NCBI GenBank assembly: GCA_045593085.1
Contig: JAZNWA010000027.1
Coordinates: forward strand, 273-64,272
From: Lachnospiraceae bacterium
Lineage (GTDB): Bacteria > Bacillota > Clostridia > Lachnospirales > Lachnospiraceae
Reading direction: 5' to 3'
DNA length: 64,000 nucleotides
A program made the position numbers and the translations under genes. How positions within the stretch are numbered: position 1 is the first letter of the stretch; each line of letters starts with the position of its first letter. Shown one piece after another: positions 14,326 through 60,640 of this stretch. Under the pieces are notes generated by a model. It worked only from the letters and a program-made list of their open reading frames with translations. It made no database searches and had not been told where the DNA came from.

Positions 14326-14498
14326 AAAGGCTCCTTTGTAAATTCGTGATTTGTAGATATTTTGTATTTGTTTTATAGATATTATAAAGCGAATGCCGGA
14401 TGCGGTCAACAGGAATATTAGTTGCGCTTATAAATAAAATAAGATTTATTAACTTTCCTTATTCGCATGGATGGGGTATACTTGAAATATATGTGGGC

Positions 14499-14578
14499 TT
14501 GGGCTGGAAGATAGGGTTGAAATTGGAAAAATCCAAAAAAAATGGGTTAAACAAAAAAATCAAGTGTTATAAGCCCAA
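14499..14578. repeat. Palindromic-end unit array D (2 units, TTGGGCT..ATCCAA / ATGGGTT..AGCCCAA)
   Basis: GGG 14501 to TCC 14534 and GGG 14544 to CCC 14576; same 33-34-bp span as arrays A-C. Confidence 0.55.
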
Positions 14579-18836: not shown

Positions 18837-18909
18837 GGGATCATAGCTCAGCTGGGAGAGCATCTGCCTTACAAGCAGAGGGTCATAGGTTCGAGCCCTA
18901 TTGGTCCCA
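18837..18909 (+). tRNA. tRNA-Val(TAC)
   Basis: GGGATCA acceptor/TGGTCCC; D arm AGCTCAGCTGGGAGAGC; anticodon loop TTACAA; GGTTCGAG T loop. Confidence 0.96.
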
Positions 18910-18934
18910 TTACCCGAGAGGGACAACTGAATAT

Positions 18935-19008
18935 GGCGGAATAGCTCAGTTGGCTAGAGCACACGGTTCATACCCGTGGTGTCGGCGGTTCAAATCCGTC
19001 TTCCGCTA
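18935..19008 (+). tRNA. tRNA-Met(CAT), elongator-type
   Basis: Cloverleaf with CACGG-TTCATAC-CCGTG anticodon arm; GGTTCAAATCC T arm. Confidence 0.93.
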
Positions 19009-19016
19009 CTAAAAAG

Positions 19017-19046
19017 AGTCTGTAAGCATTTGTTTACAGACTTTTT
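19017..19046 (+). terminator. Terminator after the tRNA pair
   Basis: AGTCTGTAA...TTACAGACT plus T-tract. Confidence 0.7.
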
Positions 19047-19075: not shown

Positions 19076-19918
19076 GTGTTTAAATTCTATTTATCTAAGG
19101 TCATTCGACTAAATTTTCCATTTTTACGTTTATCAATTATTATAAGGGAGGGAAGAGTTACGAAAAAAGAGGAAATTATTGCGATTGAAAAACAACTTCA
19201 GGAAATTAATACAATGTTAGAAAATTTGCCTGTTGGTAAATTACTATGTGCAAAAAACGGCAAATACTTCAAATGGTTCGTCGTAAGTAACAAGAAGAAA
19301 GTTTATATACCCAAAGAGGAACGACAATTTGCAGAAGAGCTTGCGTATAGGAGATATTTAGAGGAATTGCAGCTGGATTTGAAAGACGATTTAAAGTTGA
19401 TGAAATTAACAGAGAAGAGTACGGAAAGAAAATATCGTCATATTAAATTATTGGAAAAGCCGGGATTCATGGATTTGCTGCAAGAAAAAATAGGACTTGA
19501 CAGTGAACTGAAACAATGGCAAGAAGCGGATTATAATAGTAATCCTTATTATAGTGAGGAATTGAAGATAAAAGTTCATGAAGGACTTTATGTGCGATCG
19601 AAATCCGAATCAATGATTGCAATGATGTTAATACGTTACCAAATTCCTTTTCGATATGAATGCGAACTAAGAATAGCGAATAAAGTCTTATACCCTGATT
19701 TTACAATTTTACATCCGAAAACAAAGAAAATCGTTTATTGGGAGCATCTAGGTATGACGGATAATTATAAATACTGTCGGGATAATTATGGTAAACTGTT
19801 GGATTATTTTGCGGAAGATATTTGGTTTGGAGATAACCTCATTTTAACGAGTGAAACGCGGAGGAATCCGTTAGATTACGAAACAATTGAGCATCGTATT
19901 AAGGAATTTTTTCTATGA
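19076..19918 (+). CDS. Uncharacterised coiled-coil + PD-(D/E)XK/Vsr(DUF559)-like nuclease, paralog 1
   Basis: C-terminal VRSKSE...IPFRYE...YPDFTILHP...YWEHLGM; clear paralog of 26393..27157. The true start is uncertain (RBS GGGAGG precedes an in-frame ACG at 19160). Confidence 0.75.
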   Translation: MFKFYLSKVIRLNFPFLRLSIIIREGRVTKKEEIIAIEKQLQEINTMLENLPVGKLLCAKNGKYFKWFVVSNKKKVYIPKEERQFAEELAYRRYLEELQLDLKDDLKLMKLTEKSTERKYRHIKLLEKPGFMDLLQEKIGLDSELKQWQEADYNSNPYYSEELKIKVHEGLYVRSKSESMIAMMLIRYQIPFRYECELRIANKVLYPDFTILHPKTKKIVYWEHLGMTDNYKYCRDNYGKLLDYFAEDIWFGDNLILTSETRRNPLDYETIEHRIKEFFL

Positions 19919-19960
19919 ACTCGTGAAAAGTGGATGATAGGAAGTCGTATCTTAGACGCT

Positions 19961-20254
19961 TGGGCATATAGAAGTGAAAAAAATCGGTTGGCTGGGCATA
20001 TAGAAGTGAAAAGGATTTCGGGTGGCTGGGCATATAGAAGTGAAAAAAATTATATGCCCAATTTATGCTCGAAAATAAGCAAAAATATTGTGAAATTGGG
20101 CCTATAGAGAAGGCATTTTACATATGCCCGGGTTTTCAGGTGAAAGTGAGGGCATATACAAAATTCAAAGTGTATGTGCCCAAATTCACAGGAAATAGGA
20201 CTGAAATTCTCGTGAATTCGGGCTTTTTCCAAGCCATGCGTTCTATGTGCCCAA
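19961..20254. repeat. Palindromic-end unit array A (GGGCATAT / ATRTGCCC)
   Basis: TGGGCATATAGAAGTGAAAA x3 (GGG at 19962, 19994, 20028); units GGG..CCC at 20028-59, 20098-129, 20150-81 and 20220-52. Confidence 0.88.
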
Positions 20255-20483
20255 TGAAAGGGGCGCATGTGGGTTCGTTTAAGAACAAGGGATGTTTGAA
20301 ATCCAAGTAAGAGTACAGTTTTGACGAGTATTAAAGGCCGGGCAAACATATGGAGCAATCTTGTAATTCGGGGATAATTTAAACTAAAACGTCTTCCATT
20401 TTTGTTGTATCAGTGCTATAATGTGGTGTATATGTGAAAGATTGGGTTTTTGTGCCCTTTTTTAGAAAAATGGAGGATTTTAT

Positions 20484-21026
20484 ATGCGAATCGGAACCGG
20501 ATATGATGTACATCGCTTAGTGCCGGAGCGCCCATTGATCTTAGGAGGAGTGAATATTCCCCATACGTTGGGATTGCTTGGTCATTCGGATGCAGATGTG
20601 TTGCTTCACGCGATTATGGATGCCATGCTTGGGGCTGCAGGACTTGGTGATATAGGAAAACATTTCCCGGATACAGATGAAAAATATAAAGGAGCTTCCA
20701 GCTTAAAACTGTTGGAAGAAGTTGGAAAGAAACTGCAGGAAAAAGGCTATGTGGTAGAAAACATTGATTCTACGATTATTGCCCAAAAACCAAAGCTTCG
20801 TCCGTACATTGACGAGATGGAGAAAAATATTGCTGAGACATTGGGCATTGATGTTGACCGTATTAATGTGAAGGCAACCACAGAAGAGCGTTTGGGCTTT
20901 ACCGGAAATGAAGAAGGTATTTCCAGTCAGGCAGTGTGTTGTATTTCTTCTTTCTACGAAGCAAGCGTTGTGGCGTATGACAGTGAAGATAAATGTAGTC
21001 GCTGTAGCGGATGTCATAAAGAATAG
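20484..21026 (+). CDS. ispF: 2-C-methyl-D-erythritol 2,4-cyclodiphosphate synthase
   Basis: [32 protein letters not shown] motifs. Confidence 0.96.
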
Positions 21027-21074
21027 TTTTTTATGACACTATTAGGAAAATGAAACAAAATCTAGGAGAACATC

Positions 21075-22514
21075 ATGGAAAACAAATTTCGATTTTATAA
21101 TACATTATCAAGAGAAGTAGAAACTTTCGTGCCGAATGTGGAAGGCAAGGTAAGTATGTATACCTGCGGACCAACCGTTTATCATTTTGCACACATTGGA
21201 AATCTTCGTACCTATATTATGGAAGATATTTTGGAAAAAGCATTACGCTATGTAGGCTATGACGTGACACGTGTTATGAACATCACTGACGTTGGTCATT
21301 TGGCATCGGATGCAGATACCGGCGAAGACAAGATGCTAAAAGGTGCAAAAAGAGAAAACAAAACCGTTATGGAAATTGCACAGTACTATACAGATGCATT
21401 TTTTGCAGATTGTGTGAAGTTAAATATCAAGCGCCCGGAAATCGTTGAACCTGCAACAAACTGTATCGACGAATTTATCCATATGGTTTCTGTACTTTTG
21501 GAAAAAGATTATGCATATGTAGCCGGTGGAAATGTATATTTTGACACCAGTAAATTGGATGATTATTATGTATTTTCTTCCGGTATTGAAAAAGAACAGC
21601 TTCAGACCGGTGTTCGCGAGGACGTAACCGAAGATACAAATAAGAAGAATAAAAATGACTTTGTTTTATGGTTTACGAAGTCAAAATTTGAAGATCAGGC
21701 ATTAAAATGGGATAGTCCATGGGGTGTGGGATATCCGGGATGGCATATTGAGTGCTCCTGCATCAGTATGAAGCACCTTGGTGAATATATGGATATTCAT
21801 TGCGGTGGTGTAGATAACATCTTCCCGCATCACACAAATGAAATCGCACAGTCAGAAGCGTATGTGGGTCATAAATGGTGTAATTATTGGTTCCACAGCA
21901 ACCACTTAAATGACCAGTCCGGAAAAATGAGCAAGTCCAAGGGCGAATTTTTGACCGTTTCCCTTATTGAATCCAAGGGATATAATCCGCTTGCATACCG
22001 CTTGTTCTGCTTACAGTCTCATTACAGAAAACCATTGGTATTTTCTTATGAAAACTTAGATAACGCCACCGTTGCTTACAATAAATTGGTAAAGAGAATT
22101 TCTGAATTAAAAGCAGAAGGTGAAGCAGATGGTATTGCATTTGCTCAGTACAGAGAAAAATTTGCAGATGCCATTTCCAACGATGTAAATACGTCCATGG
22201 CAATCACTGTTGTTTACGATATGCTGAAAGCAGATATTAGTGATGCAACAAAACTTGCCTTGGTTGCAGACTATGATACGGTATTATCTTTGGGATTGAT
22301 AGAAGCAGCACAGAAATTGCGTGACGAAGCGGGAACAGCCAATGCGACAGTTGATGCAGAGTTAGAAGCGTTCATCCTTGCAAAAATCGAGGAACGTAAA
22401 GAAGCAAAGAAGGCAAAAGATTTTGCAAAAGCAGATGCAATTCGTGAAGAATTGTTGGCAAAGGGCGTTGCAATCAAAGATACCCGTGAAGGCGTGGTTT
22501 GGGAATTGGTGTAA
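21075..22514 (+). CDS. cysS: Cysteinyl-tRNA synthetase
   Basis: CGPTVY, HIGN, PGWHIECS, DIHCGG and KMSKS motifs. Confidence 0.97.
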   Translation: MENKFRFYNTLSREVETFVPNVEGKVSMYTCGPTVYHFAHIGNLRTYIMEDILEKALRYVGYDVTRVMNITDVGHLASDADTGEDKMLKGAKRENKTVMEIAQYYTDAFFADCVKLNIKRPEIVEPATNCIDEFIHMVSVLLEKDYAYVAGGNVYFDTSKLDDYYVFSSGIEKEQLQTGVREDVTEDTNKKNKNDFVLWFTKSKFEDQALKWDSPWGVGYPGWHIECSCISMKHLGEYMDIHCGGVDNIFPHHTNEIAQSEAYVGHKWCNYWFHSNHLNDQSGKMSKSKGEFLTVSLIESKGYNPLAYRLFCLQSHYRKPLVFSYENLDNATVAYNKLVKRISELKAEGEADGIAFAQYREKFADAISNDVNTSMAITVVYDMLKADISDATKLALVADYDTVLSLGLIEAAQKLRDEAGTANATVDAELEAFILAKIEERKEAKKAKDFAKADAIREELLAKGVAIKDTREGVVWELV

Positions 22515-22553
22515 AACCAAGAGTTTGATGCGTAAAAGCGCAGGAGTGTATAC

Positions 22554-22976
22554 ATGGAAAAAGGTATCAACCAGTATATTTTAGAGCATTTTCAAATACA
22601 GGAACAAGACATCAAAAGCTATTCTCCCTTAACATTAGCGTTTATTGGAGATGGTGCATTTGACTTGATTATTCGTTCCATCGTTGTGGGAAAGGGTAAC
22701 ACCAGTGCGAATCAATTACATCGACAGACCAGTAGGATAGTAAAGGCAGCAGCCCAGTCAGAGATGATTGAAAAAATCCTGCCGTATCTTACAGCGGACG
22801 AAGAAGCCGTATATAAGCGCGGACGCAATGCAAAGTCCGGTACGATGGCAAAAAATGCGACAATGGTAGAATATCGCAGGGCAACAGGATTTGAAGCCTT
22901 GATGGGATATTTGTATTTGAAAAATGAGTTTTCCCGTATGATAGAGCTTATCAAAATCGGGATGGAGGAGCAGTAA
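22554..22976 (+). CDS. mrnC: Mini-ribonuclease III
   Basis: LAFIGDG, KRGRNAK, YRRATGFEALMGYL; cysS-mrnC-rlmB synteny. Confidence 0.93.
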   Translation: MEKGINQYILEHFQIQEQDIKSYSPLTLAFIGDGAFDLIIRSIVVGKGNTSANQLHRQTSRIVKAAAQSEMIEKILPYLTADEEAVYKRGRNAKSGTMAKNATMVEYRRATGFEALMGYLYLKNEFSRMIELIKIGMEEQ

Positions 22977-23723
22977 ATGAAACAAAATGAACAATATATT
23001 GAAGGAAGAAATGCCGTAATTGAAGCAATTCGTGCAGGAAAAACCATTGACAAGCTCTATGTATTAGATGGTTGTCCGGACGGACCGGTGCGAACCATTG
23101 TCAGAGAAGCAAGAAAAACCGATGCAATTATTAATTTCGTAGAAAAAGACCGTTTGGACCAGCTTTCCCAGACCGGACATCATCAGGGTGTGATTGCTGT
23201 TAGTGCGGCGTATGATTATGCAGAATTGGATGACATTTTTGCATTGGCAGAGAAAAAAGGCGAACCGCCATTTATTTTCCTTTTGGACGAAATCGAAGAT
23301 CCGCATAACTTGGGTGCAATTATCCGTACGGCAAATCAGGCAGGTGCTCACGGAGTAATCATTCCAAAGCGCAGAGCCGTAGGACTTACTGCAACAGTAG
23401 CAAGAACCAGTGCCGGTGCGATTAATTATACTCCTGTAGTAAAAGTTACCAACTTAACCAAGACTATTCAGGAATTAAAAGAACGCGGAATCTGGTTTGT
23501 TTGTGCAGATATGGACGGACAGTGCATGTATGATTTAAATTTAACAGGCCCGATTGGTATGGTTATCGGAAATGAAGGGGAAGGTGTATCGAAATTGGTT
23601 AAGGAAAATTGTGATTTCGTGGCATCTATTCCGATGAAAGGTGATATTGATTCCTTGAATGCATCTGTTGCGACAGGCGTTTTGGCATATGAAATTGTAC
23701 GTCAGCGTATGCAGAAGAAATAG
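22977..23723 (+). CDS. rlmB: 23S rRNA (G2251-2'-O)-methyltransferase, TrmH family
   Basis: IEGRNAV, DPHNLGAIIRTA, GNEGEG, SLNASVA SPOUT motifs. Confidence 0.93.
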   Translation: MKQNEQYIEGRNAVIEAIRAGKTIDKLYVLDGCPDGPVRTIVREARKTDAIINFVEKDRLDQLSQTGHHQGVIAVSAAYDYAELDDIFALAEKKGEPPFIFLLDEIEDPHNLGAIIRTANQAGAHGVIIPKRRAVGLTATVARTSAGAINYTPVVKVTNLTKTIQELKERGIWFVCADMDGQCMYDLNLTGPIGMVIGNEGEGVSKLVKENCDFVASIPMKGDIDSLNASVATGVLAYEIVRQRMQKK

Positions 23724-23731
23724 ATCTTAGA

Positions 23732-24388
23732 TTGCCTAAGTATTTGACGCAAGCAGAAATAAGAGCAAAAAGGAAGGAATATATGAAAGATTTTTCAACC
23801 TATACAGATGAGCAACTTGTGCTTTTAGGGCGCGAGGGCAATCATCAGGCAATGGATGAGGTTATTAACCGTTACAAATCCATCGTAAGAAAAAAGGCAA
23901 ACACGCTTTTTTTAGCCGGAGCAGATTCAGATGATTTGCTGCAGGAAGGTATGATCGGGCTGTATCAGGCATACAGAGATTTCGATCCTGAGAAAAAAGC
24001 GGCGTTTAAGACGTTTGCGGGTATTTGTATTTCCGGACAAATGCATAAGGCAATTGAAGCTGCAGGAAGGGACAAGCACCTTCCGTTAAATAAATATGTT
24101 TCCCTTTTTTCAGAGGAAGCTGAAGGTAGCGAAGAAAATATGGCGGCCCGGTTTGATGCAGAAAATGGTAACGATCCGGAAGAACTGTACATTGATAGGG
24201 AAAATGTAAAAGCTTTGGTTGAACGTATTAAGAAAATTTTGAGTCCGCTGGAATGGGAAGTGTTTTTTCGCTATGTAAACGGTTTGACCATTCGTCAGAT
24301 TGCAGAGGAATTAGGAAAAAATGAGAAGGCAATAGGAAATGCCAGGGACCGTATCCGGACAAAGATTACCAAGGAAATCAACGGATAG
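23732..24388 (+). CDS. sigH: RNA polymerase sigma factor, SigH-like
   Basis: DDLLQEGMIGLY, FKTFA, LSPLEW..F...NARDRIR; canonical position after rlmB. The start may be the ATG at 23783. Confidence 0.8.
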   Translation: MPKYLTQAEIRAKRKEYMKDFSTYTDEQLVLLGREGNHQAMDEVINRYKSIVRKKANTLFLAGADSDDLLQEGMIGLYQAYRDFDPEKKAAFKTFAGICISGQMHKAIEAAGRDKHLPLNKYVSLFSEEAEGSEENMAARFDAENGNDPEELYIDRENVKALVERIKKILSPLEWEVFFRYVNGLTIRQIAEELGKNEKAIGNARDRIRTKITKEING

Positions 24389-24512
24389 AATAAAGGATAT
24401 AACTTGAAAAATGCTAAGCGTTTTTGGGTTAATCATATATGACCGGAATTTCGAAAGGAATTTTGGTTATCCAGTATAAACAAAATATGTTTCAATAAAA
24501 AGGAGAAAAATT

Positions 24513-25703
24513 ATGCAGATTTTAGTAATCAACTGTGGTAGCTCTTCATTAAAATTCCAGTTAATTAATGCAGAGACAGAAAACGTAAAAGCATCCGGTT
24601 TATGCGAAAGAATCGGCATTGACGGAAGATTGGTATATCAGCCGGCAGGATGCGACAAGATTAGCACAGATGTTGCTATGCCTGACCACAAGGCAGCAAT
24701 CAAATTAGTTATCGATGCTTTGACAAATCCGGAAAACGGAGTTGTGAAGTCTTTATCCGAAATTGATGCAGTAGGCCATCGTGTGGTTCACGGCGGAGAA
24801 AAGTTCGCAGGTTCTGTTGTAATCACAGACGAAGTAATCAAAGTATTAGAAGAGTGTACAGATTTGGCACCACTTCACAATCCTGCAAACATTACAGGTA
24901 TTTTAGCAGCTCAGGAATTAATGCCGGGCGTACCAATGGTTGGTGTATTTGATACCGCTTTCCATCAGACCATGCCTGCAAAAGCTTTCACATACGGTGT
25001 TCCTCATGAGTACTATGACAAATATGCAGTAAGAAGATACGGTTTCCACGGAACTTCTCACGCATATGTTTCAGCAAGAGCAGCAGAATTGGCAGGTAAG
25101 CCATATGATCAGTGTAAGACAATCGTTTGCCACTTAGGTAACGGAAGCTCTATCTGTGCAGTTGAAAACGGAAAATCTGTTGATACATCCATGGGACTTA
25201 CTCCATTGGAAGGTTTATTAATGGGAACACGTTCCGGTGATATCGATGCAGGTGCTTTAGAGTACATCATGAAAAAAGAAGGCATCGAATTCAAAGAAAT
25301 GATGAACATCTTAAACAAGAAATCCGGTTTACTTGGTGTATCCGGCGTTTCTTCTGACTCCAGAGACGTTATGGCAGCAGCGGCTGAAGGAAACAAAAAT
25401 GCAGCATTAGCAATTGAAAACTTCAACTACCGCGTTGCTAAATATGTTGGTGCTTACGCAGCAGCTATGAATGGTGTTGATGTTATTGCATTTACCGCAG
25501 GTATCGGCGAAAACGCTATCGACACAAGAGTAGACATCTGCAAATACTTTGAATACCTTGGAATTAAGATTGACTTAGAAAAGAATAACGTTCGTGGTAA
25601 AGAAGTAGAAATCTCTACTCCGGATTCCAAAGTTAAAGTATTTATCATTCCAACAAACGAAGAATTAAAGATTGCAAGAGAAACTGTTGCTTTAGTTAAA
25701 TAA
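24513..25703 (+). CDS. ackA: Acetate kinase
   Basis: INCGSSSLK, GHRVVHGG, APLHN, FDTAFH, YGFHGTSH, PTNEE. Confidence 0.97.
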   Translation: MQILVINCGSSSLKFQLINAETENVKASGLCERIGIDGRLVYQPAGCDKISTDVAMPDHKAAIKLVIDALTNPENGVVKSLSEIDAVGHRVVHGGEKFAGSVVITDEVIKVLEECTDLAPLHNPANITGILAAQELMPGVPMVGVFDTAFHQTMPAKAFTYGVPHEYYDKYAVRRYGFHGTSHAYVSARAAELAGKPYDQCKTIVCHLGNGSSICAVENGKSVDTSMGLTPLEGLLMGTRSGDIDAGALEYIMKKEGIEFKEMMNILNKKSGLLGVSGVSSDSRDVMAAAAEGNKNAALAIENFNYRVAKYVGAYAAAMNGVDVIAFTAGIGENAIDTRVDICKYFEYLGIKIDLEKNNVRGKEVEISTPDSKVKVFIIPTNEELKIARETVALVK

Positions 25704-25720
25704 TTTATCAGATGAAATCG

Positions 25721-25751
25721 GGGCATGCATTTGTGCATGCCCTGTTTTTTT
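25721..25751 (+). terminator. Terminator after ackA
   Basis: GGGCATGCA-TTTG-TGCATGCCC plus T-tract. Confidence 0.85.
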
Positions 25752-25787
25752 ATGCCCTGCCATCGTTTAATATGTCCGGCCCATGGG

Positions 25788-26089
25788 TTGGGTCAAGGCT
25801 AATGCGTTGTGTGTTACAGACCCAATCGGCGAGCATATGTTAAGATGCAGGTGGTGTGGTTGGGGCATAGTAAAAAAGGCTTCTGCCGAGACCCGAAAAA
25901 AACTCTTTTTAGTATGGAATTTGTGGAGATTGGGTCTTGGCAGAAGAGAGTTATAGTGCAGACCCGGAGTTTCGACGGATTGGTGGGTCTTGGGCGATTT
26001 TCGAGACGCATAGACCCGAAGTGACGAAAAAAGACGGAAGAATGCTTGTTTTTTGGGTCTGCGATGAGACAAGTTGGCTATAGACCCAA
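25788..26089. repeat. Palindromic-end unit array B (TTGGGTCT / AGACCCRA), 5 units
   Basis: GGG at 25790, 25862, 25932, 25985, 26055; paired CCC ends at 25823, 25894, 25965, 26017, 26087; cores all different. Confidence 0.85.
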
Positions 26090-26392
26090 CCACGGAAATT
26101 AATAAAGCCTGAAGGATAAAGAGACTAGGAAAATCAACAAAAACGCGGATGTTAAAGGAATCACGGAAACCAATAGAAGCTTGGAAATTAGAATAACAGC
26201 CGCTGCTGAAGATGTCTACCAAGGAAACATTCGCATTATATGGTCACACGAGTGAAGCAAAAAGAGAGAAAATCTTAAAAGTTTATAAAGTGCTGATGAT
26301 GACTTTACTTAAAAAGAAAATTATGATTCAATTAATATATCATTCAAATGGGATATCCAAAATGGATTCAAATTTAATAGGGGGAGAGTTAT

Positions 26393-27157
26393 ATGTATGA
26401 AAAAATGGTGCAAGAAAGACAACGAATCGCACGGAAAATTGAAGAGTTGCAGCGTAAAATTCGTTCATACCCGGAAGGCAAATTGATTTGTGCCGGAAAT
26501 GGCAAGTATGTAAAATGGTATATTAGCTACGGAAACAATCGCACATACATCAAGAAAAAGGACCGAACCCTGGCAGAGAAAATGGCTGCTAAAAAATATT
26601 TAACAGCAGTGTTGATAGAATTAGATGCAGAAAAAAAGGCGATTGAGAGTTATCTTAAACATCACAGGACGGAAACAAGTCATTTGTTGGAGACGCCGGG
26701 ATACCAGGAATTGCTTGTACCATTTTTTAAAAGCTTTGAGCAAAGCGCATGGGAGTGGATGAATGAACCGTATGAGAAAAATGAAGCTTTTCCGACAGCA
26801 CTTATTCACCAGACAGTTGTTGGAATTAAAGTAAGATCCAAGTCAGAGTCGATGATTGTTAAAGTGTTGGCTGAACATGGAATAGCATTTCGCTATGAAT
26901 GGCGATTGGATTTTGGCGAAGGATTGGCCTATCCTGATTTTACGATTATGCATCCGGTAACAGGGAAGCTTTATTATTGGGAACATTTTGGGATGATGAA
27001 CAAACGTGAATATAGGAATCGGGCAGTAAATAAGATTCAAAATTATTCTTACAACGGAATTATTCCCGGCATACAGCTCATCATGACTTTTGAAACGGAG
27101 GATGACCCTTTGACATATGAAAAGATTGAATGGATTATAAAAATGTATTTTGAGTAA
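26393..27157 (+). CDS. Uncharacterised coiled-coil + PD-(D/E)XK/Vsr(DUF559)-like nuclease, paralog 2
   Basis: PEGKLICAGNGKY.KW, VRSKSE, AFRYE, YPDFTIMHP, YWEHFGM; GGGGGAG RBS. Confidence 0.8.
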   Translation: MYEKMVQERQRIARKIEELQRKIRSYPEGKLICAGNGKYVKWYISYGNNRTYIKKKDRTLAEKMAAKKYLTAVLIELDAEKKAIESYLKHHRTETSHLLETPGYQELLVPFFKSFEQSAWEWMNEPYEKNEAFPTALIHQTVVGIKVRSKSESMIVKVLAEHGIAFRYEWRLDFGEGLAYPDFTIMHPVTGKLYYWEHFGMMNKREYRNRAVNKIQNYSYNGIIPGIQLIMTFETEDDPLTYEKIEWIIKMYFE

Positions 27158-33530: not shown

Positions 33531-33672
33531 AATGAGCAAAGGCTCATTAAGTGCTTCACTACTTTGGAAGTGAACCTTAATTCAGACATTGCTTTGTACG
33601 AACAATGTTAATATTTGGGCTGACCGAAAGGTCCTGGTCCACCGTCGGGCGGGGATTTACCCCGCCATTTTT
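33531..33672 (+). ncRNA. Candidate structured RNA (DUF3800-associated RNA motif-like)
   Basis: Five consecutive hairpins: 33531-48, 33555-74, 33586-608, GACC-GAAA-GGTC 33622-33, and GGCGGGG/CCCCGCC 33648-66 followed by T-tract. Confidence 0.55.
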
Positions 33673-49343: not shown

Positions 49344-50594
49344 TTATAGCATTACCGGGAAAATATAATCATTTTTACCGGCAACTTTGGTTAAATATAA
49401 TTCCCGCGCAAACAAGTCCTTTTTTAATAGGGAAAGCGCATCATCATCCAACAGGCTTTGTGCTTTTTTTACATTGGACAAAAGCGGTGCAAGCTGAAGA
49501 GACGAGACGTAGGACAGTAGGTCGGTCCGGCATTTTTTGAAACCAAGGATACGAATATACGGAACCGGAGATTCTTTTAAAAGGCACATGTCACTTTCTG
49601 TTATGTTTAATATGATGTGCAATAAAAAGCGGCTAACCCGCGCGTAGGTAATATCCTTTGTTTGCAGAGTTTTGCAGAAATCGGAAAAGGAGGTATAGGT
49701 TGATAATTGATTCAAGATACGATTGGACAATTCTTCGTTTCCGTCTGCGTAATCCGAAAAGCCGTGGGCTTTTTGGGATAAAATGCAATAGTTTAACTCG
49801 TTAGAAAAATCATTTTCCGTTACCGGAGTGTGATGTTCAAAATAGGATTGTAATAAGGCTACATCATGCGTCGGGACATAACTTTGCCATCCGTTCAGCG
49901 TATTTTTGGCAAATAAGTCACGAAGTGCAGTTGCGGAGCAGATATTTTCACTGGTAGATAAAGAGTGATAGTCTGTTCCAATACGTTGAATCGGGCATAG
50001 TTCAACCGGTTTATGCAACTTATGGCTTTTTTCTAAGCGTTTTAAGGCCTTGAGATATTCAATGGCCAAAATATTATTCGGTTGTTTCAGAAACTGTTCT
50101 AATTCTTCTTTTGAACAATCGCAACCTTCAGCAAAAGACGATGAAAAATGTTCTATCGTTGCCTGACAGCGGGCGGTTGGAAAGGACAGCCCGTCCTTTA
50201 AGTAAGCTTGTAAAGTCTTTTTATAAGTGTCCGGTTCTTCTATATATAATGTGGCCAGTTTTTGTAAGAGAGGGATGGAAGGGGTTTCGCATCCAAACAC
50301 AAGAACATCGATGCCGGAGGCAACCAATAAGGATATACTTCCAAAGGCAAAGGCTTCCGCACTGGCAGTAGAGTAAGGAACCGGAATTTGAAGAACCATA
50401 TCGGCACCGGAATGAAGGGCAGAAATAGTTCGCAGCTCTTTGTCTATGACAGCGGGAGTACCCCGTTGAACAAAATCACCGCTCATAGCAACAATGAGGG
50501 AATCGCAACCGGTTATAGAACGCGCCTTTTGGATTTGATAAGCATGGCCGTTATGAAATGGATTGTATTCAGCAACAATGCCTGCGATTTTCAT
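49344..50594 (-). CDS. tmcAL: tRNA(Met) cytidine acetate ligase / HIGH nucleotidyltransferase (YlbM family)
   Basis: GIVAEYNPFHNGH, MSGDFVQRG, PNNILAIEY, SATALR. Confidence 0.88.
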   Translation of the reverse strand: MKIAGIVAEYNPFHNGHAYQIQKARSITGCDSLIVAMSGDFVQRGTPAVIDKELRTISALHSGADMVLQIPVPYSTASAEAFAFGSISLLVASGIDVLVFGCETPSIPLLQKLATLYIEEPDTYKKTLQAYLKDGLSFPTARCQATIEHFSSSFAEGCDCSKEELEQFLKQPNNILAIEYLKALKRLEKSHKLHKPVELCPIQRIGTDYHSLSTSENICSATALRDLFAKNTLNGWQSYVPTHDVALLQSYFEHHTPVTENDFSNELNYCILSQKAHGFSDYADGNEELSNRILNQLSTYTSFSDFCKTLQTKDITYARVSRFLLHIILNITESDMCLLKESPVPYIRILGFKKCRTDLLSYVSSLQLAPLLSNVKKAQSLLDDDALSLLKKDLFARELYLTKVAGKNDYIFPVML

Positions 50595-60380: not shown

Positions 60381-60640
60381 TTGGGCTAGAAATCGGCCTT
60401 GGTGTAAAAAAATCCAATTTTTCAAGTGACGTGGGCTGAGGTGGCATGTGATTTCTCTTCAGTCCAAAAAACAGGGGCTTTTTGGACTGAAGCGTATTAC
60501 AGGGGTACCAGAGCCCAATTTTTGTGAAAAAATGCGAAAAACGGTTATTTTTTTGGGCTTTTTGTTTTTTTTAGATGGGCATCAGCCCAACGAGAAAGGA
60601 ATTGTGGGCTACGCTTCGATTTATAGCCATCATGGCCCAA
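60381..60640. repeat. Palindromic-end unit array C (TTGGGCT / AGYCCAA), 5 units
   Basis: GG(G/A) at 60383, 60433, 60484, 60555, 60606; partner (T/C)CC ending 60415, 60465, 60516, 60588, 60638. Confidence 0.75.

What the first reader, a model, noticed from the sequence alone, without database searches (positions are those of the whole stretch)
19076..27157. Candidate undescribed nuclease-plus-palindromic-array system (REP/RAYT-like logic, but with a PD-(D/E)XK-type nuclease)
Seen in sequence: two paralogous uncharacterised genes (19076..19918 and 26393..27157) share an N-terminal coiled coil, a P.GKL.CA.NGKY.KW motif and a C-terminal RSKSE-FRYE-YPDFTI.HP-YWEH.GM domain. Each lies next to an intergenic array of ~37-bp units with inverted ends (YTGGG...CCCAA; GGG-to-CCC span 32-34 bp) and non-repeating cores. 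The unit-to-unit spacing is almost identical in both arrays (A: 70/52/70; B: 72/70/53/70) even though the sequences have diverged. Each array has its own end flavour (A GGGCATAT/ATRTGCCC; B GGGTCT/AGACCC). Two further arrays without an adjacent nuclease occur at 14.5 and 60.4 kb (GGGCT/AGYCC type). Established knowledge: REP/BIME repeats are dispersed, alternately oriented, come in sequence classes, and are linked to cognate HUH RAYT transposases. The SE...PDF...E-H pattern here resembles Vsr/DUF559-type PD-(D/E)XK nucleases, not HUH. Inference: a nuclease family that recognises, generates or spreads its cognate array class, or uses array-derived hairpin RNAs as guides.
Basis: partly seen in the sequence, partly recalled or inferred. 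Interest (0 to 1): 0.85.

Follow-up and report, generated by a model that had tools for sequence, protein, structure and literature searches.

The report
Nuclease paralogs with private palindrome arrays
All four full-length copies of an unnamed nuclease-like gene in this gut Lachnospiraceae genome (two in the window, two on another contig) sit beside arrays of short palindrome-ended DNA units with a copy-specific end sequence; this gene-plus-repeat pairing works like the REP/RAYT system of Proteobacteria but uses an unrelated enzyme, and I found no description of it.

Summary
The two genes are paralogs (37% identity). The genome holds two more full copies on another contig. All four lie within 300 bp of arrays of 32-38-bp units with inverted ends, phased 52/70 bp, in four end "flavours": GGGCATAT, GGGTCT, GGGCT and GGACAT. 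About 25-30 further arrays elsewhere in the genome use only these four flavours.

The protein has a fast-evolving N-terminal coiled-coil/beta-hairpin half and a C-terminal restriction-endonuclease-like (PD-(D/E)XK) domain. Thirteen residues of that domain are invariant in 99 of 99 homologs. No Pfam or NCBIfam model covers it.

Near 96 homolog genes from other Lachnospiraceae, strictly defined arrays reach 149/Mb within 500 bp, against 7.6/Mb further away (p = 6e-9). Each paralog carries its own flavour. The genome has no RAYT/Y1 transposase, and the arrays match no Rfam family.

Most likely this is a selfish or domesticated nuclease-repeat pair, in which the dimeric nuclease recognises and cuts its own array and recombinational repair spreads and reshapes the arrays.

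Weak points:
- Flavour does not track the protein tree significantly (p about 0.2).
- Orphan arrays are rare in a sister genome with 11 copies.
- No biochemical or transcript data exist.
- The guide-RNA idea is not supported.

The parts
19076..19918 (+). Nuclease paralog A (P0001). It has an N-terminal coiled-coil/beta-hairpin module and a C-terminal PD-(D/E)XK-like domain. The true start is probably near 19160-19190, but no canonical start codon lies there.
   Evidence: alignment, invariant RSKSE/FRYE/PDF/WEH.G; PDC-S68 C-terminal domain, E 1e-23; tblastn.
19960..20259 (.). Array A, flavour TTGGGCATAT/ATATGCCCAA. Three tandem left half-sites are followed by four palindrome-ended units of 32-36 bp, with GGG starts spaced 70/52/72. 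The long linkers carry a second inverted motif, AATTCACAGG..CGTGAATT.
25788..26089 (.). Array B, flavour TTGGGTCT/AGACCCAA. Five units spaced 72/70/53/70. Neighbouring units share extended 15-nt inverted arms.
   Evidence: (I1, I5).
26393..27157 (+). Nuclease paralog B (P0002, 254 aa). AF2 model with mean pLDDT 89.5.
60381..60640 (.). Array of the GGGCT flavour with no adjacent nuclease gene. Its flavour matches the arrays that flank paralog C on contig C22. It sits upstream of the conserved ylxM promoter element, and four congeners lack it at that position.
14492..14578 (.). Weak remnant of about two units of the GGGCT flavour (TTGGGCTGG... and ...TAAGCCCAA).
   Evidence: The array detectors did not pick it up.

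Best explanation
This is a gene-plus-repeat partnership: a modular nuclease together with arrays of its own recognition sites.

Shown:
- The family is specific to Lachnospiraceae and has 0-13 copies per genome.
- Each copy is a solitary gene that lies next to, and often between, arrays of palindrome-ended units with a copy-specific end sequence.
- The C-terminal half has a restriction-endonuclease-like fold with a strictly invariant polar cluster.
- The N-terminal half evolves faster than the C-terminal half.

Inferred:
1. A dimer, joined through the coiled coil, reads the two inverted 7-10-bp half-sites of a unit, which lie about 22-24 bp apart centre to centre, using its variable N-terminal module.
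2. The PD-(D/E)XK domain nicks or cuts in or near the unconserved core or linker.
3. The break is repaired by recombination with another array. This keeps the ends uniform while the cores drift, adds or removes 52/70-bp units, copies blocks of several units into other intergenic gaps (the orphan arrays), and can carry the gene along as an array-gene-array cassette.

The logic is that of REP/BIME elements with their RAYT, or of a homing endonuclease whose target is its own repeat. The enzyme, however, is unrelated to HUH transposases.

My estimates: about 0.85 that gene and arrays form a cognate pair, about 0.85 that the protein has a nuclease fold, and about 0.4 that nuclease cutting drives array spread.
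For: This genome:
- All four full copies are within 300 bp of arrays. Arrays plus a 300-bp margin cover roughly 1.5% of the genome, so four out of four by chance is about 5e-8 (my estimate).
- There are four flavours for four paralogs, and the roughly 25-30 other arrays use only these flavours.
- The TTGGG..CCCAA flavours are specific to this genome: 46 hits here against 0-12 in 16 relatives.

Other genomes:
- The family-based detector finds 43 arrays against 1 in shuffled sequence, and 30 of the 43 lie within 300 bp of the gene.
- The strict detector gives 149/Mb near the gene against 7.6/Mb elsewhere, p = 6e-9.
- The 11 paralogs of G012 each have a private flavour.
- In the nuclease-free genome G006 there are 0 arrays in 639 kb.
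- The gene lies between arrays in L019, L035, L066, L067 and L071 (direct repeats of 250-390 bp, 91-97% identical) and in L015, L017 and L074 (inverted repeats).
- Whole array blocks are copied into four successive intergenic gaps in L035.
- Close relatives differ by one 72-bp unit.

Protein:
- R148, S149, K150, E152, Y168, E169, P181, D182, E197, H198, G200, Y207 and E234 are invariant in 99 of 99 homologs.
- In close pairs the substitutions concentrate in residues 1-145. L028 and L069 are 80% identical, come from the same MAG, and have different flavours. L012 and L023 show the same pattern.

Exclusions: there is no RAYT in the genome and no Rfam match.
Against:
- Flavour does not track the protein tree significantly (p about 0.2). 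Only very close pairs agree, and they may simply share ancestry.
- Array detection is incomplete. Between 12 of 96 and about 42 of 84 homolog loci show arrays, depending on stringency. Some loci (L007, L008, L022) show other repeats or none.
- Orphan arrays are rare in G012 despite its 11 copies: 0 strict arrays in 400 kb and 2 extra units of one flavour. REP-like dispersal is therefore not general.
- The G006 negative is weak. About 2.7 arrays were expected at the G000 density, so P is about 0.07.
- The canonical lysine of (D/E)xK is absent: the motif reads WEHFG. Catalysis is therefore inferred from invariance only.
- The paralogs within a genome are old (35-48% identity), unlike an actively transposing element.
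Confidence: 0.5

Rival explanations
1. The arrays are docking sites only. The protein is a sequence-specific DNA-binding factor, for example in autoregulation, nucleoid structuring or roadblocking, and its nuclease fold is not used for cutting. The arrays grow by replication slippage and ordinary recombination.
For: The unit spacing is phased and conserved (52/70, 61, 71-72 bp) across flavours and genomes, as expected for a nucleoprotein array. Arrays lie directly up- or downstream of the gene itself. The canonical (D/E)xK lysine is missing.
Against: Thirteen polar and aromatic residues of the nuclease core are invariant in 99 of 99 divergent homologs. That pattern is typical of a preserved active site. 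The same domain is the C-terminal module of helicase/ATPase-type proteins and of PADLOC candidate PDC-S68. The patchy count of 0-13 copies per genome within one genus does not fit a housekeeping architectural protein.
Confidence: 0.17
2. This is a free-standing homing-type nuclease gene that merely lands in pre-existing arrays. Another process makes and spreads the arrays. The nuclease gene is a parasite of the arrays, and the flavour is its target preference.
For: Foldseek neighbours include phage homing endonucleases of the PD-(D/E)XK/Vsr type. The gene lies between near-identical direct array copies, as after recombination into an array. Flavour changes between close paralogs (L028/L069). 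Copy number is patchy.
Against: Arrays are concentrated at the genes and rare elsewhere: 7.6/Mb in the loci, 0 in 400 kb of G012 and 0 in 639 kb of the gene-free G006. No other candidate enzyme was found, and the genome has no Y1 transposase. There are no near-identical gene copies within a genome.
Confidence: 0.15
3. The system acts at the RNA level. The arrays are transcribed, their hairpins are processed or bound by the protein, and the products serve as guides, decoys or mRNA stabilisers.
For: Each unit can form an 8-10-bp stem with a 12-16-nt loop. No terminator lies between the stop codon of paralog A and array A. The layout looks like repeat and spacer.
Against: Young arrays have near-identical cores and linkers, so they are tandem duplicates and not acquired spacers. 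The units are symmetric on both strands, and arrays occur on either side of the gene in direct or inverted orientation. There is no Rfam match. The nuclease domain's relatives are DNA enzymes. There are no cas-like neighbours; only the nuclease gene itself is shared between loci.
Confidence: 0.06
4. It is an anti-phage defence gene, and the arrays are incidental. The small protein is a stand-alone version of the PDC-S68 effector domain.
For: The PADLOC PDC-S68 models match residues 129-252 at E down to 6e-29. Copy number and sequence are hypervariable.
Against: Only the last ~130 of ~1200 profile positions match, so it is not the system itself. The genes sit among housekeeping genes (tRNA genes and ispF; ackA), not in defence islands. 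This reading does not explain the flavour-matched arrays.
Confidence: 0.05

Closest known systems
REP/BIME elements and REPINs with their RAYT (REP-associated tyrosine transposase), i.e. REPtrons, in Proteobacteria (PMC3337134, PMC3116915, PMC3733652)
   Same: Both have short palindromic intergenic repeats in alternating orientation, with linkers of fixed size classes. Both have several sequence classes per genome, each tied to one enzyme gene. In both, the enzyme gene is flanked by its own repeat class, and further copies are scattered in intergenic gaps. Paralogs within a genome are old and few rather than identical IS-like copies.
   Different: The enzyme here has a PD-(D/E)XK-like fold and is not an HUH/Y1 transposase. 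The units carry no GTAG/CGTC tag. Only the 7-10-bp ends and the spacing are conserved, not the whole palindrome. Copy numbers are tens of arrays, not hundreds of REPs. The host is Lachnospiraceae (Bacillota). In some genomes almost all arrays sit at the gene.
I-Bth0305I and the EDxHD family of homing endonucleases (PMC3239194)
   Same: Both are multidomain homodimeric proteins with an N-terminal DNA-recognition part and a C-terminal Vsr-like PD-(D/E)XK nuclease domain. Both have a long pseudopalindromic footprint. Both are selfish genes that persist beside or within their own target. Phage homing endonucleases are among the best Foldseek matches.
   Different: There is no EDxHD motif and no HMM-level similarity. 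The gene is not inside an intron or intein. The presumed target is an array of repeated sites in intergenic DNA, not a single site in a conserved gene.
PADLOC candidate PDC-S68 and plasmid-borne 'AAA ATPase / RecD-like helicase' proteins of ~1100-1280 aa
   Same: The C-terminal ~125 residues are homologous (E 1e-23 to 6e-29). This is the source of the misleading 'ATPase' name that some database entries give the small proteins.
   Different: The small proteins have no ATPase or helicase part. They carry the coiled-coil/beta-hairpin N-terminal half instead. I did not examine the large proteins for flanking arrays.
CRISPR arrays
   Same: Both are regularly spaced, partly palindromic repeats with unlike sequence in between, next to a nuclease gene.
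   Different: Here the conserved parts are only short inverted ends. The cores and linkers are duplicated with the unit and then drift. There are no cas genes and no leader, arrays can lie on both sides of the gene, and many arrays are dispersed.

Membership tests
REP/RAYT (REPtron, REPIN-RAYT) | The enzyme is an HUH/Y1 transposase of the IS200/IS605 type (Pfam Y1_Tnp, PF01797). | tested here: not met
   There is no Pfam hit for either protein, and PF01797 has no match anywhere in the 94%-complete genome while the control genomes ring.
REP/RAYT (REPtron, REPIN-RAYT) | The enzyme gene is flanked by its own class of palindromic repeats. | tested here: met
REP/RAYT (REPtron, REPIN-RAYT) | The same repeat class is dispersed in many intergenic regions of the genome. 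| tested here: inconclusive
   G000 has about 25-30 orphan arrays in the four flavours. G012, with 11 genes, has almost none.
REP/RAYT (REPtron, REPIN-RAYT) | A conserved GTAG or CGTC tetranucleotide lies at one end of the palindrome (PMC3733652). | tested here: not met
   The unit ends read (T)TGGGCATAT, TTGGGTCT, TTGGGCT and TTGGACAT. No such tag is seen in the printed arrays.
PD-(D/E)XK (restriction-endonuclease-like) superfamily | An alpha-beta-beta-beta-alpha-beta core fold. | tested here: met
   In the AF2 model (pLDDT 89.5), residues ~145-254 match phage endonucleases, DUF2726, TnsA-N, Vsr, DUF559 and Holliday-junction resolvases at E 9e-5 to 5e-2 with probability up to 1.0. They also match the R2 RLE domain, Card1/Can2, AF1548, XisH and BamHI in the PDB at weak E values of 0.02-0.3.
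PD-(D/E)XK (restriction-endonuclease-like) superfamily | The catalytic signature E ... PD ... (D/E)xK. | tested here: inconclusive
   E152, P181-D182 and E197 are invariant, but the third motif reads W-E197-H198-F with no lysine. K150 of RSKSE is invariant and could substitute. Activity has not been tested.
Vsr / DUF559 families | A match to the family HMMs (PF03852, PF04480). | tested here: not met
   There are no Pfam matches at E <= 1 for the two proteins or for 16 relatives. Only distant fold-level neighbours appear (ranks 33, 37 and 46).
EDxHD homing endonucleases (I-Bth0305I) | An EDxHD motif and residence in a group I intron or intein. | tested here: not met
   The motif is absent from the alignment. 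The genes are free-standing in intergenic DNA.
CRISPR-Cas | Identical direct repeats separated by unique acquired spacers, with cas genes adjacent. | tested here: not met
   Only the inverted ends are conserved. The cores are duplicated together with the units. No partner gene is conserved next to the nuclease gene.
PADLOC PDC-S68 | A full-length ~1200-aa protein matching the profile end to end. | tested here: not met
   Only profile positions ~1080-1250 match.

The most novel reading that the evidence does not exclude
A previously unrecognised class of nuclease-repeat symbiont exists in Bacillota. It is a family of modular PD-(D/E)XK nucleases in which each member has evolved to read a private bipartite site of two ~10-bp half-sites about 12-16 bp apart. 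Each member creates, homogenises and disperses arrays of that site by cut-and-repair. This would be a non-HUH counterpart of REPIN-RAYT systems, and with more than 2000 sequence clusters it would be a natural library of long-site, reprogrammable DNA-recognition modules.
Probability: 0.35. Interest if true: 0.85.

Novelty: new variant of a known kind. Interest (0 to 1): 0.74.

Why it matters
REP/RAYT is so far the textbook case of a bacterial repeat family maintained by a dedicated, vertically kept enzyme, and it is known mainly from Proteobacteria. A second, mechanistically unrelated system with the same logic in a dominant family of gut and rumen bacteria would show that this kind of partnership evolved more than once. 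It would also explain part of the long, repeat-rich intergenic gaps and the assembly breaks seen in Lachnospiraceae genomes.

The system offers many natural enzyme/site pairs. More than 2000 protein clusters exist, and each paralog's presumed site is written next to its gene. Such pairs could be used to learn how a modular PD-(D/E)XK nuclease reads long bipartite sites. Cultured carriers exist (Hominiventricola filiformis CLA-AA-H276 and Lachnoclostridium sp. An138), so the question can be tested at the bench.

Tried and rejected
1. Flavour against phylogeny: 31 labelled tips in 5 classes on a tree of 84 proteins gave 15 changes against a shuffled range of 12-19 (p about 0.2). The tree is star-like, so the test has little power.
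2. K-mer half-site counting with one mismatch was swamped by A/T-rich words and abandoned.
3. The density of any 7-nt inverted pair was uninformative, at about 8/kb everywhere. ORF masking also hid arrays, because arrays contain spurious open frames.
4. Sequence searches of the PDB, with a single sequence and with a profile, found nothing useful. Pfam, NCBIfam and PHROGs gave no meaningful family.
5. Rfam: the arrays match no family.
6. Strain-level comparison through an exact-protein look-up gave only one 1.8-kb contig, which ends inside array B.
7. No orthologs are found at the same loci in congeners. Homologs in the same genus are only 32-45% identical to the four copies here and are not next to ackA or ispF.
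9. A D-flavour 'array' called at window 49474-49840 is a false positive in coding sequence.
10. Full-text searches for DUF6788, for REP/RAYT in Firmicutes, and for DUF559 with palindromic repeats found no description of this system.


Full report
**What is in the window**

Their products, P0001 and P0002, are paralogs: 37% identical over 244 residues, E 1e-51.

Downstream of the first gene, 19960-20259 holds three tandem copies of TGGGCATATAGAAGTGAAAA. Four units with inverted ends of the type TTGGGCATAT...ATATGCCCAA follow. Upstream of the second gene, 25788-26089 holds five units of the type TTGGGTCT...AGACCCAA. A scan for GGG-led 7-mers with an inverted partner 28-40 bp away recovers both arrays, with unit starts spaced 70/52 and 53/70.

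**The whole genome changes the picture**

The window is C27:273-64272 of a 2.12-Mb assembly of 31 contigs, 94% complete. A tblastn search finds four full copies of the gene plus one 86-aa fragment.

The two copies outside the window lie on contig C22, and each is flanked on both sides by arrays.
- C22:141850-142632 is flanked by TTGGGCT...AGCCCAA units. This is the flavour of the "orphan" arrays at 14.5 and 60.4 kb of the window.
- C22:117361-118095 is flanked by a fourth flavour, TTGGACAT...ATGTCCAA.

There are therefore four paralogs and four flavours, with each gene next to its own.

Flavour-specific scans find about 9 A arrays, 8 B arrays, 4 C arrays and 10-16 D arrays, against 0-5 in shuffled sequence. 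An unbiased listing of GGG- and GGAC-led units finds multi-unit clusters only in these flavours. The spacing classes of about 52, about 70 and their sum of 122 bp recur in all flavours.

Exact TTGGG-N24-30-CCCAA occurs 46 times here, against 5 for the reversed-pattern control and 0-12 in 16 related genomes. The flavours are therefore specific to this genome.

Within A-type arrays the long linker carries a second inverted motif, AATTCACAGG...TGTGAATT. The real repeat is thus an 18-20-nt word laid down in alternating orientation with fixed gaps, as in BIMEs.

**The protein**

No Pfam, NCBIfam or PHROG family covers it. The large protein collection holds more than 2000 clusters at 90% identity. 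A few are named "ATPase".

PADLOC's candidate PDC-S68 matches residues ~129-252 through its last ~130 profile positions, at E down to 6e-29. The same domain ends 1100-1280-aa proteins in other Lachnospiraceae, and it ends plasmid proteins annotated as AAA ATPase or RecD-like helicase. That explains the misleading name.

An AlphaFold2 model (mean pLDDT 89.5) shows four parts in order:
- an N-terminal helix;
- a three-stranded sheet carrying the GKL.C..NGKY.KW motif;
- a long return helix;
- a C-terminal alpha/beta domain.

Foldseek places the C-terminal domain in the restriction-endonuclease-like fold. PDB matches are weak: the R2 RLE domain, Card1/Can2/Cdn1, AF1548, XisH and BamHI, at E 0.02-0.3. 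BFVD matches are clear: phage endonucleases, DUF2726, homing endonucleases, endonuclease I, TnsA-N, Vsr and DUF559, at E 9e-5 to 5e-2.

In 99 homologs, R148, S149, K150, E152, Y168, E169, P181, D182, E197, H198, G200, Y207 and E234 never vary. The canonical lysine of (D/E)xK is missing, since the motif reads WEHFG. Activity is therefore likely but not shown.

In two closely related pairs the substitutions pile up in residues 1-145, while the nuclease half is almost unchanged. One of these pairs, L028 and L069, comes from the same MAG, is 80% identical, and is flanked by different flavours: TTAGGCATA against TTGGGTAT. This fits a modular enzyme whose N-terminal half reads DNA.

**Other genomes**

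Eighty homolog loci from Lachnospiraceae MAGs and isolates were fetched.
- A detector that requires at least three units sharing a 7-nt arm finds 43 arrays, against 1 in shuffled loci. Thirty of the 43 lie within 300 bp of the gene, and 27 of the 80 loci are positive.
- A generic YKGGR-N22-30-YCCMR unit occurs at 2.3/kb within 250 bp of the gene, 0.64/kb beyond 2 kb, and 0.24/kb in shuffled sequence.
- A stricter detector (8-nt arms) gives 149 arrays/Mb within 500 bp of 96 genes against 7.6/Mb in the rest of the loci, p = 6e-9. The same detector gives 10 arrays in this genome, 9 of them true, and 0 in shuffled sequence.

The flavours are diverse. They include GGGCATA, GGGGCAT, GGGTATA, GGGTAC, GGGTCT, GGACAT, GGACCT, GGGCAGA, CCGGGCA, AGGCATA and AGTATCT, plus a GTATCTTGATAC type.

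In the sister genome G012, which has 11 copies, most paralogs have a private flavour: TGGGTAAA, TGGCGCC, TGGGCATAA, TACCTAC, AGCCAAA and TTAGCCT.

The gene often lies between arrays.
- In L019, L035, L066, L067 and L071 the two flanks are direct repeats of 250-390 bp at 91-97% identity.
- In L015, L017 and L074 the flanks are inverted.
- In the cultured Hominiventricola filiformis (L035) the same 255-bp array block sits in four successive intergenic gaps.
- Close relatives differ by exactly one 72-bp unit.
- The array DNA is unalignable between genomes whose flanking genes are 82-87% identical.

**Distribution**

The family is present in 75 of 251 Lachnospiraceae genera sampled, and in none of 12 other families of the order. 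Within the window's genus, copy number runs from 0 to 13.

Homologs in congeners are only 32-45% identical to the four copies here and are not at the same loci. The gene is solitary: between loci only the gene itself is shared. The gap upstream of ylxM carries no array in four congeners.

**What argues for caution**

- Flavour does not cluster significantly on the protein tree (p about 0.2). The tree is nearly a star, and close pairs that agree may simply share ancestry.
- Many homolog loci show no array with my detectors. A few show other repeats (L007, L022).
- In G012, regions away from the genes held no strict array in 400 kb, and one flavour had only two extra units. The wide dispersal seen in this genome is therefore not general.
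- The gene-free genome G006 had none in 639 kb, but only about 2.7 were expected at this genome's density.

**Interpretation**

The association of gene and array, and the one-flavour-per-paralog rule, are well supported. The most economical mechanism is a dimeric, modular nuclease that reads the two inverted half-sites of its own units and cuts there. Recombinational repair between arrays would then keep the ends uniform, change unit numbers, copy array blocks into new gaps, and sometimes move the gene as an array-gene-array cassette. This part is inference.

The rivals are as follows.
- A non-cutting docking protein.
- A homing-type gene that parasitises arrays made by something else.
- RNA hairpins as substrates or guides. 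This is disfavoured because young arrays have duplicated cores, not acquired ones.
- A defence gene.

**Comparison with known systems**

The system works like REP/BIME-RAYT (PMC3337134, PMC3116915). It fails that family's defining tests: there is no Y1 transposase in the protein or the genome, and there is no GTAG/CGTC tag (PMC3733652).

The protein's build recalls I-Bth0305I, a homodimeric multidomain homing endonuclease with a Vsr-like C-terminal domain and a ~60-bp footprint (PMC3239194). It lacks that family's motif and its intron setting.

Full-text searches found no description of this protein family or of these arrays. Earlier notes of this scan report the same pairing in other Lachnospiraceae genomes. 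Those are unchecked AI notes and do not count as independent evidence, but they agree with what I found here.

Noticed in passing
window 19076-19200: Paralog A has no ATG/GTG/TTG near the N-terminus that aligns with its relatives. The only in-frame start (GTG at 19076) adds 27 residues and overlaps promoter-like sequence. A strong AGGGAGGG ribosome-binding site at about 19147-19154 is followed by GTT ACG. The gene either uses an unusual start codon or is decaying.
   Followed up: partly
G000 contig C1:101523-101783 (outside the window): An 86-aa open frame matches only the last third of the nuclease domain (E 1e-18). It is a remnant of a fifth copy. I did not examine its surroundings for arrays.
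   Followed up: no
window 18837-19046: Paralog A sits directly downstream of two tRNA genes and their terminator. In genome G012 an array of another paralog (L081) also starts right after a tRNA 3' end and terminator hairpin. This may reflect a preference for gaps next to tRNA genes.
   Followed up: no
window 33616-33663: There is an Rfam DUF3800-XI RNA match (59.8 bits against a gathering score of 37.8). It confirms another first-stage note on this window and is unrelated to the arrays.
   Followed up: no
L022:4748-5413: One homolog gene is followed by quite different tandem repeats: six 31-bp units that begin inside its 3' end, and ten 20-21-bp units (CAAGYCCCAAAAAGCTGTTG). They are not palindrome-ended units.
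   Followed up: no
table; L100: Many contigs that carry homologs are only 1-3 kb long. The one contig with a 99%-identical copy of paralog B ends inside array B. The arrays seem to break metagenome assemblies, so the family and its arrays are probably under-represented in MAGs.
   Followed up: partly
G116:C13, G185:C1, G125:C6, G064:C1, G230:C6; plasmid hits H4-H13: The nuclease domain also forms the C-terminus of ~1100-1280-aa proteins annotated as AAA ATPase or RecD-like helicase (PADLOC PDC-S68 type). The NCBI name 'ATPase' on some of the small proteins is probably a transferred misannotation.
   Followed up: partly
L012 vs L023: At one orthologous locus of two Faecalimonas MAGs, the nuclease gene is 78% identical while the flanking genes are 82-87% identical, and the arrays are unalignable. 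One genome also has about 1.2 kb of extra sequence between the upstream gene and the nuclease gene.
   Followed up: partly
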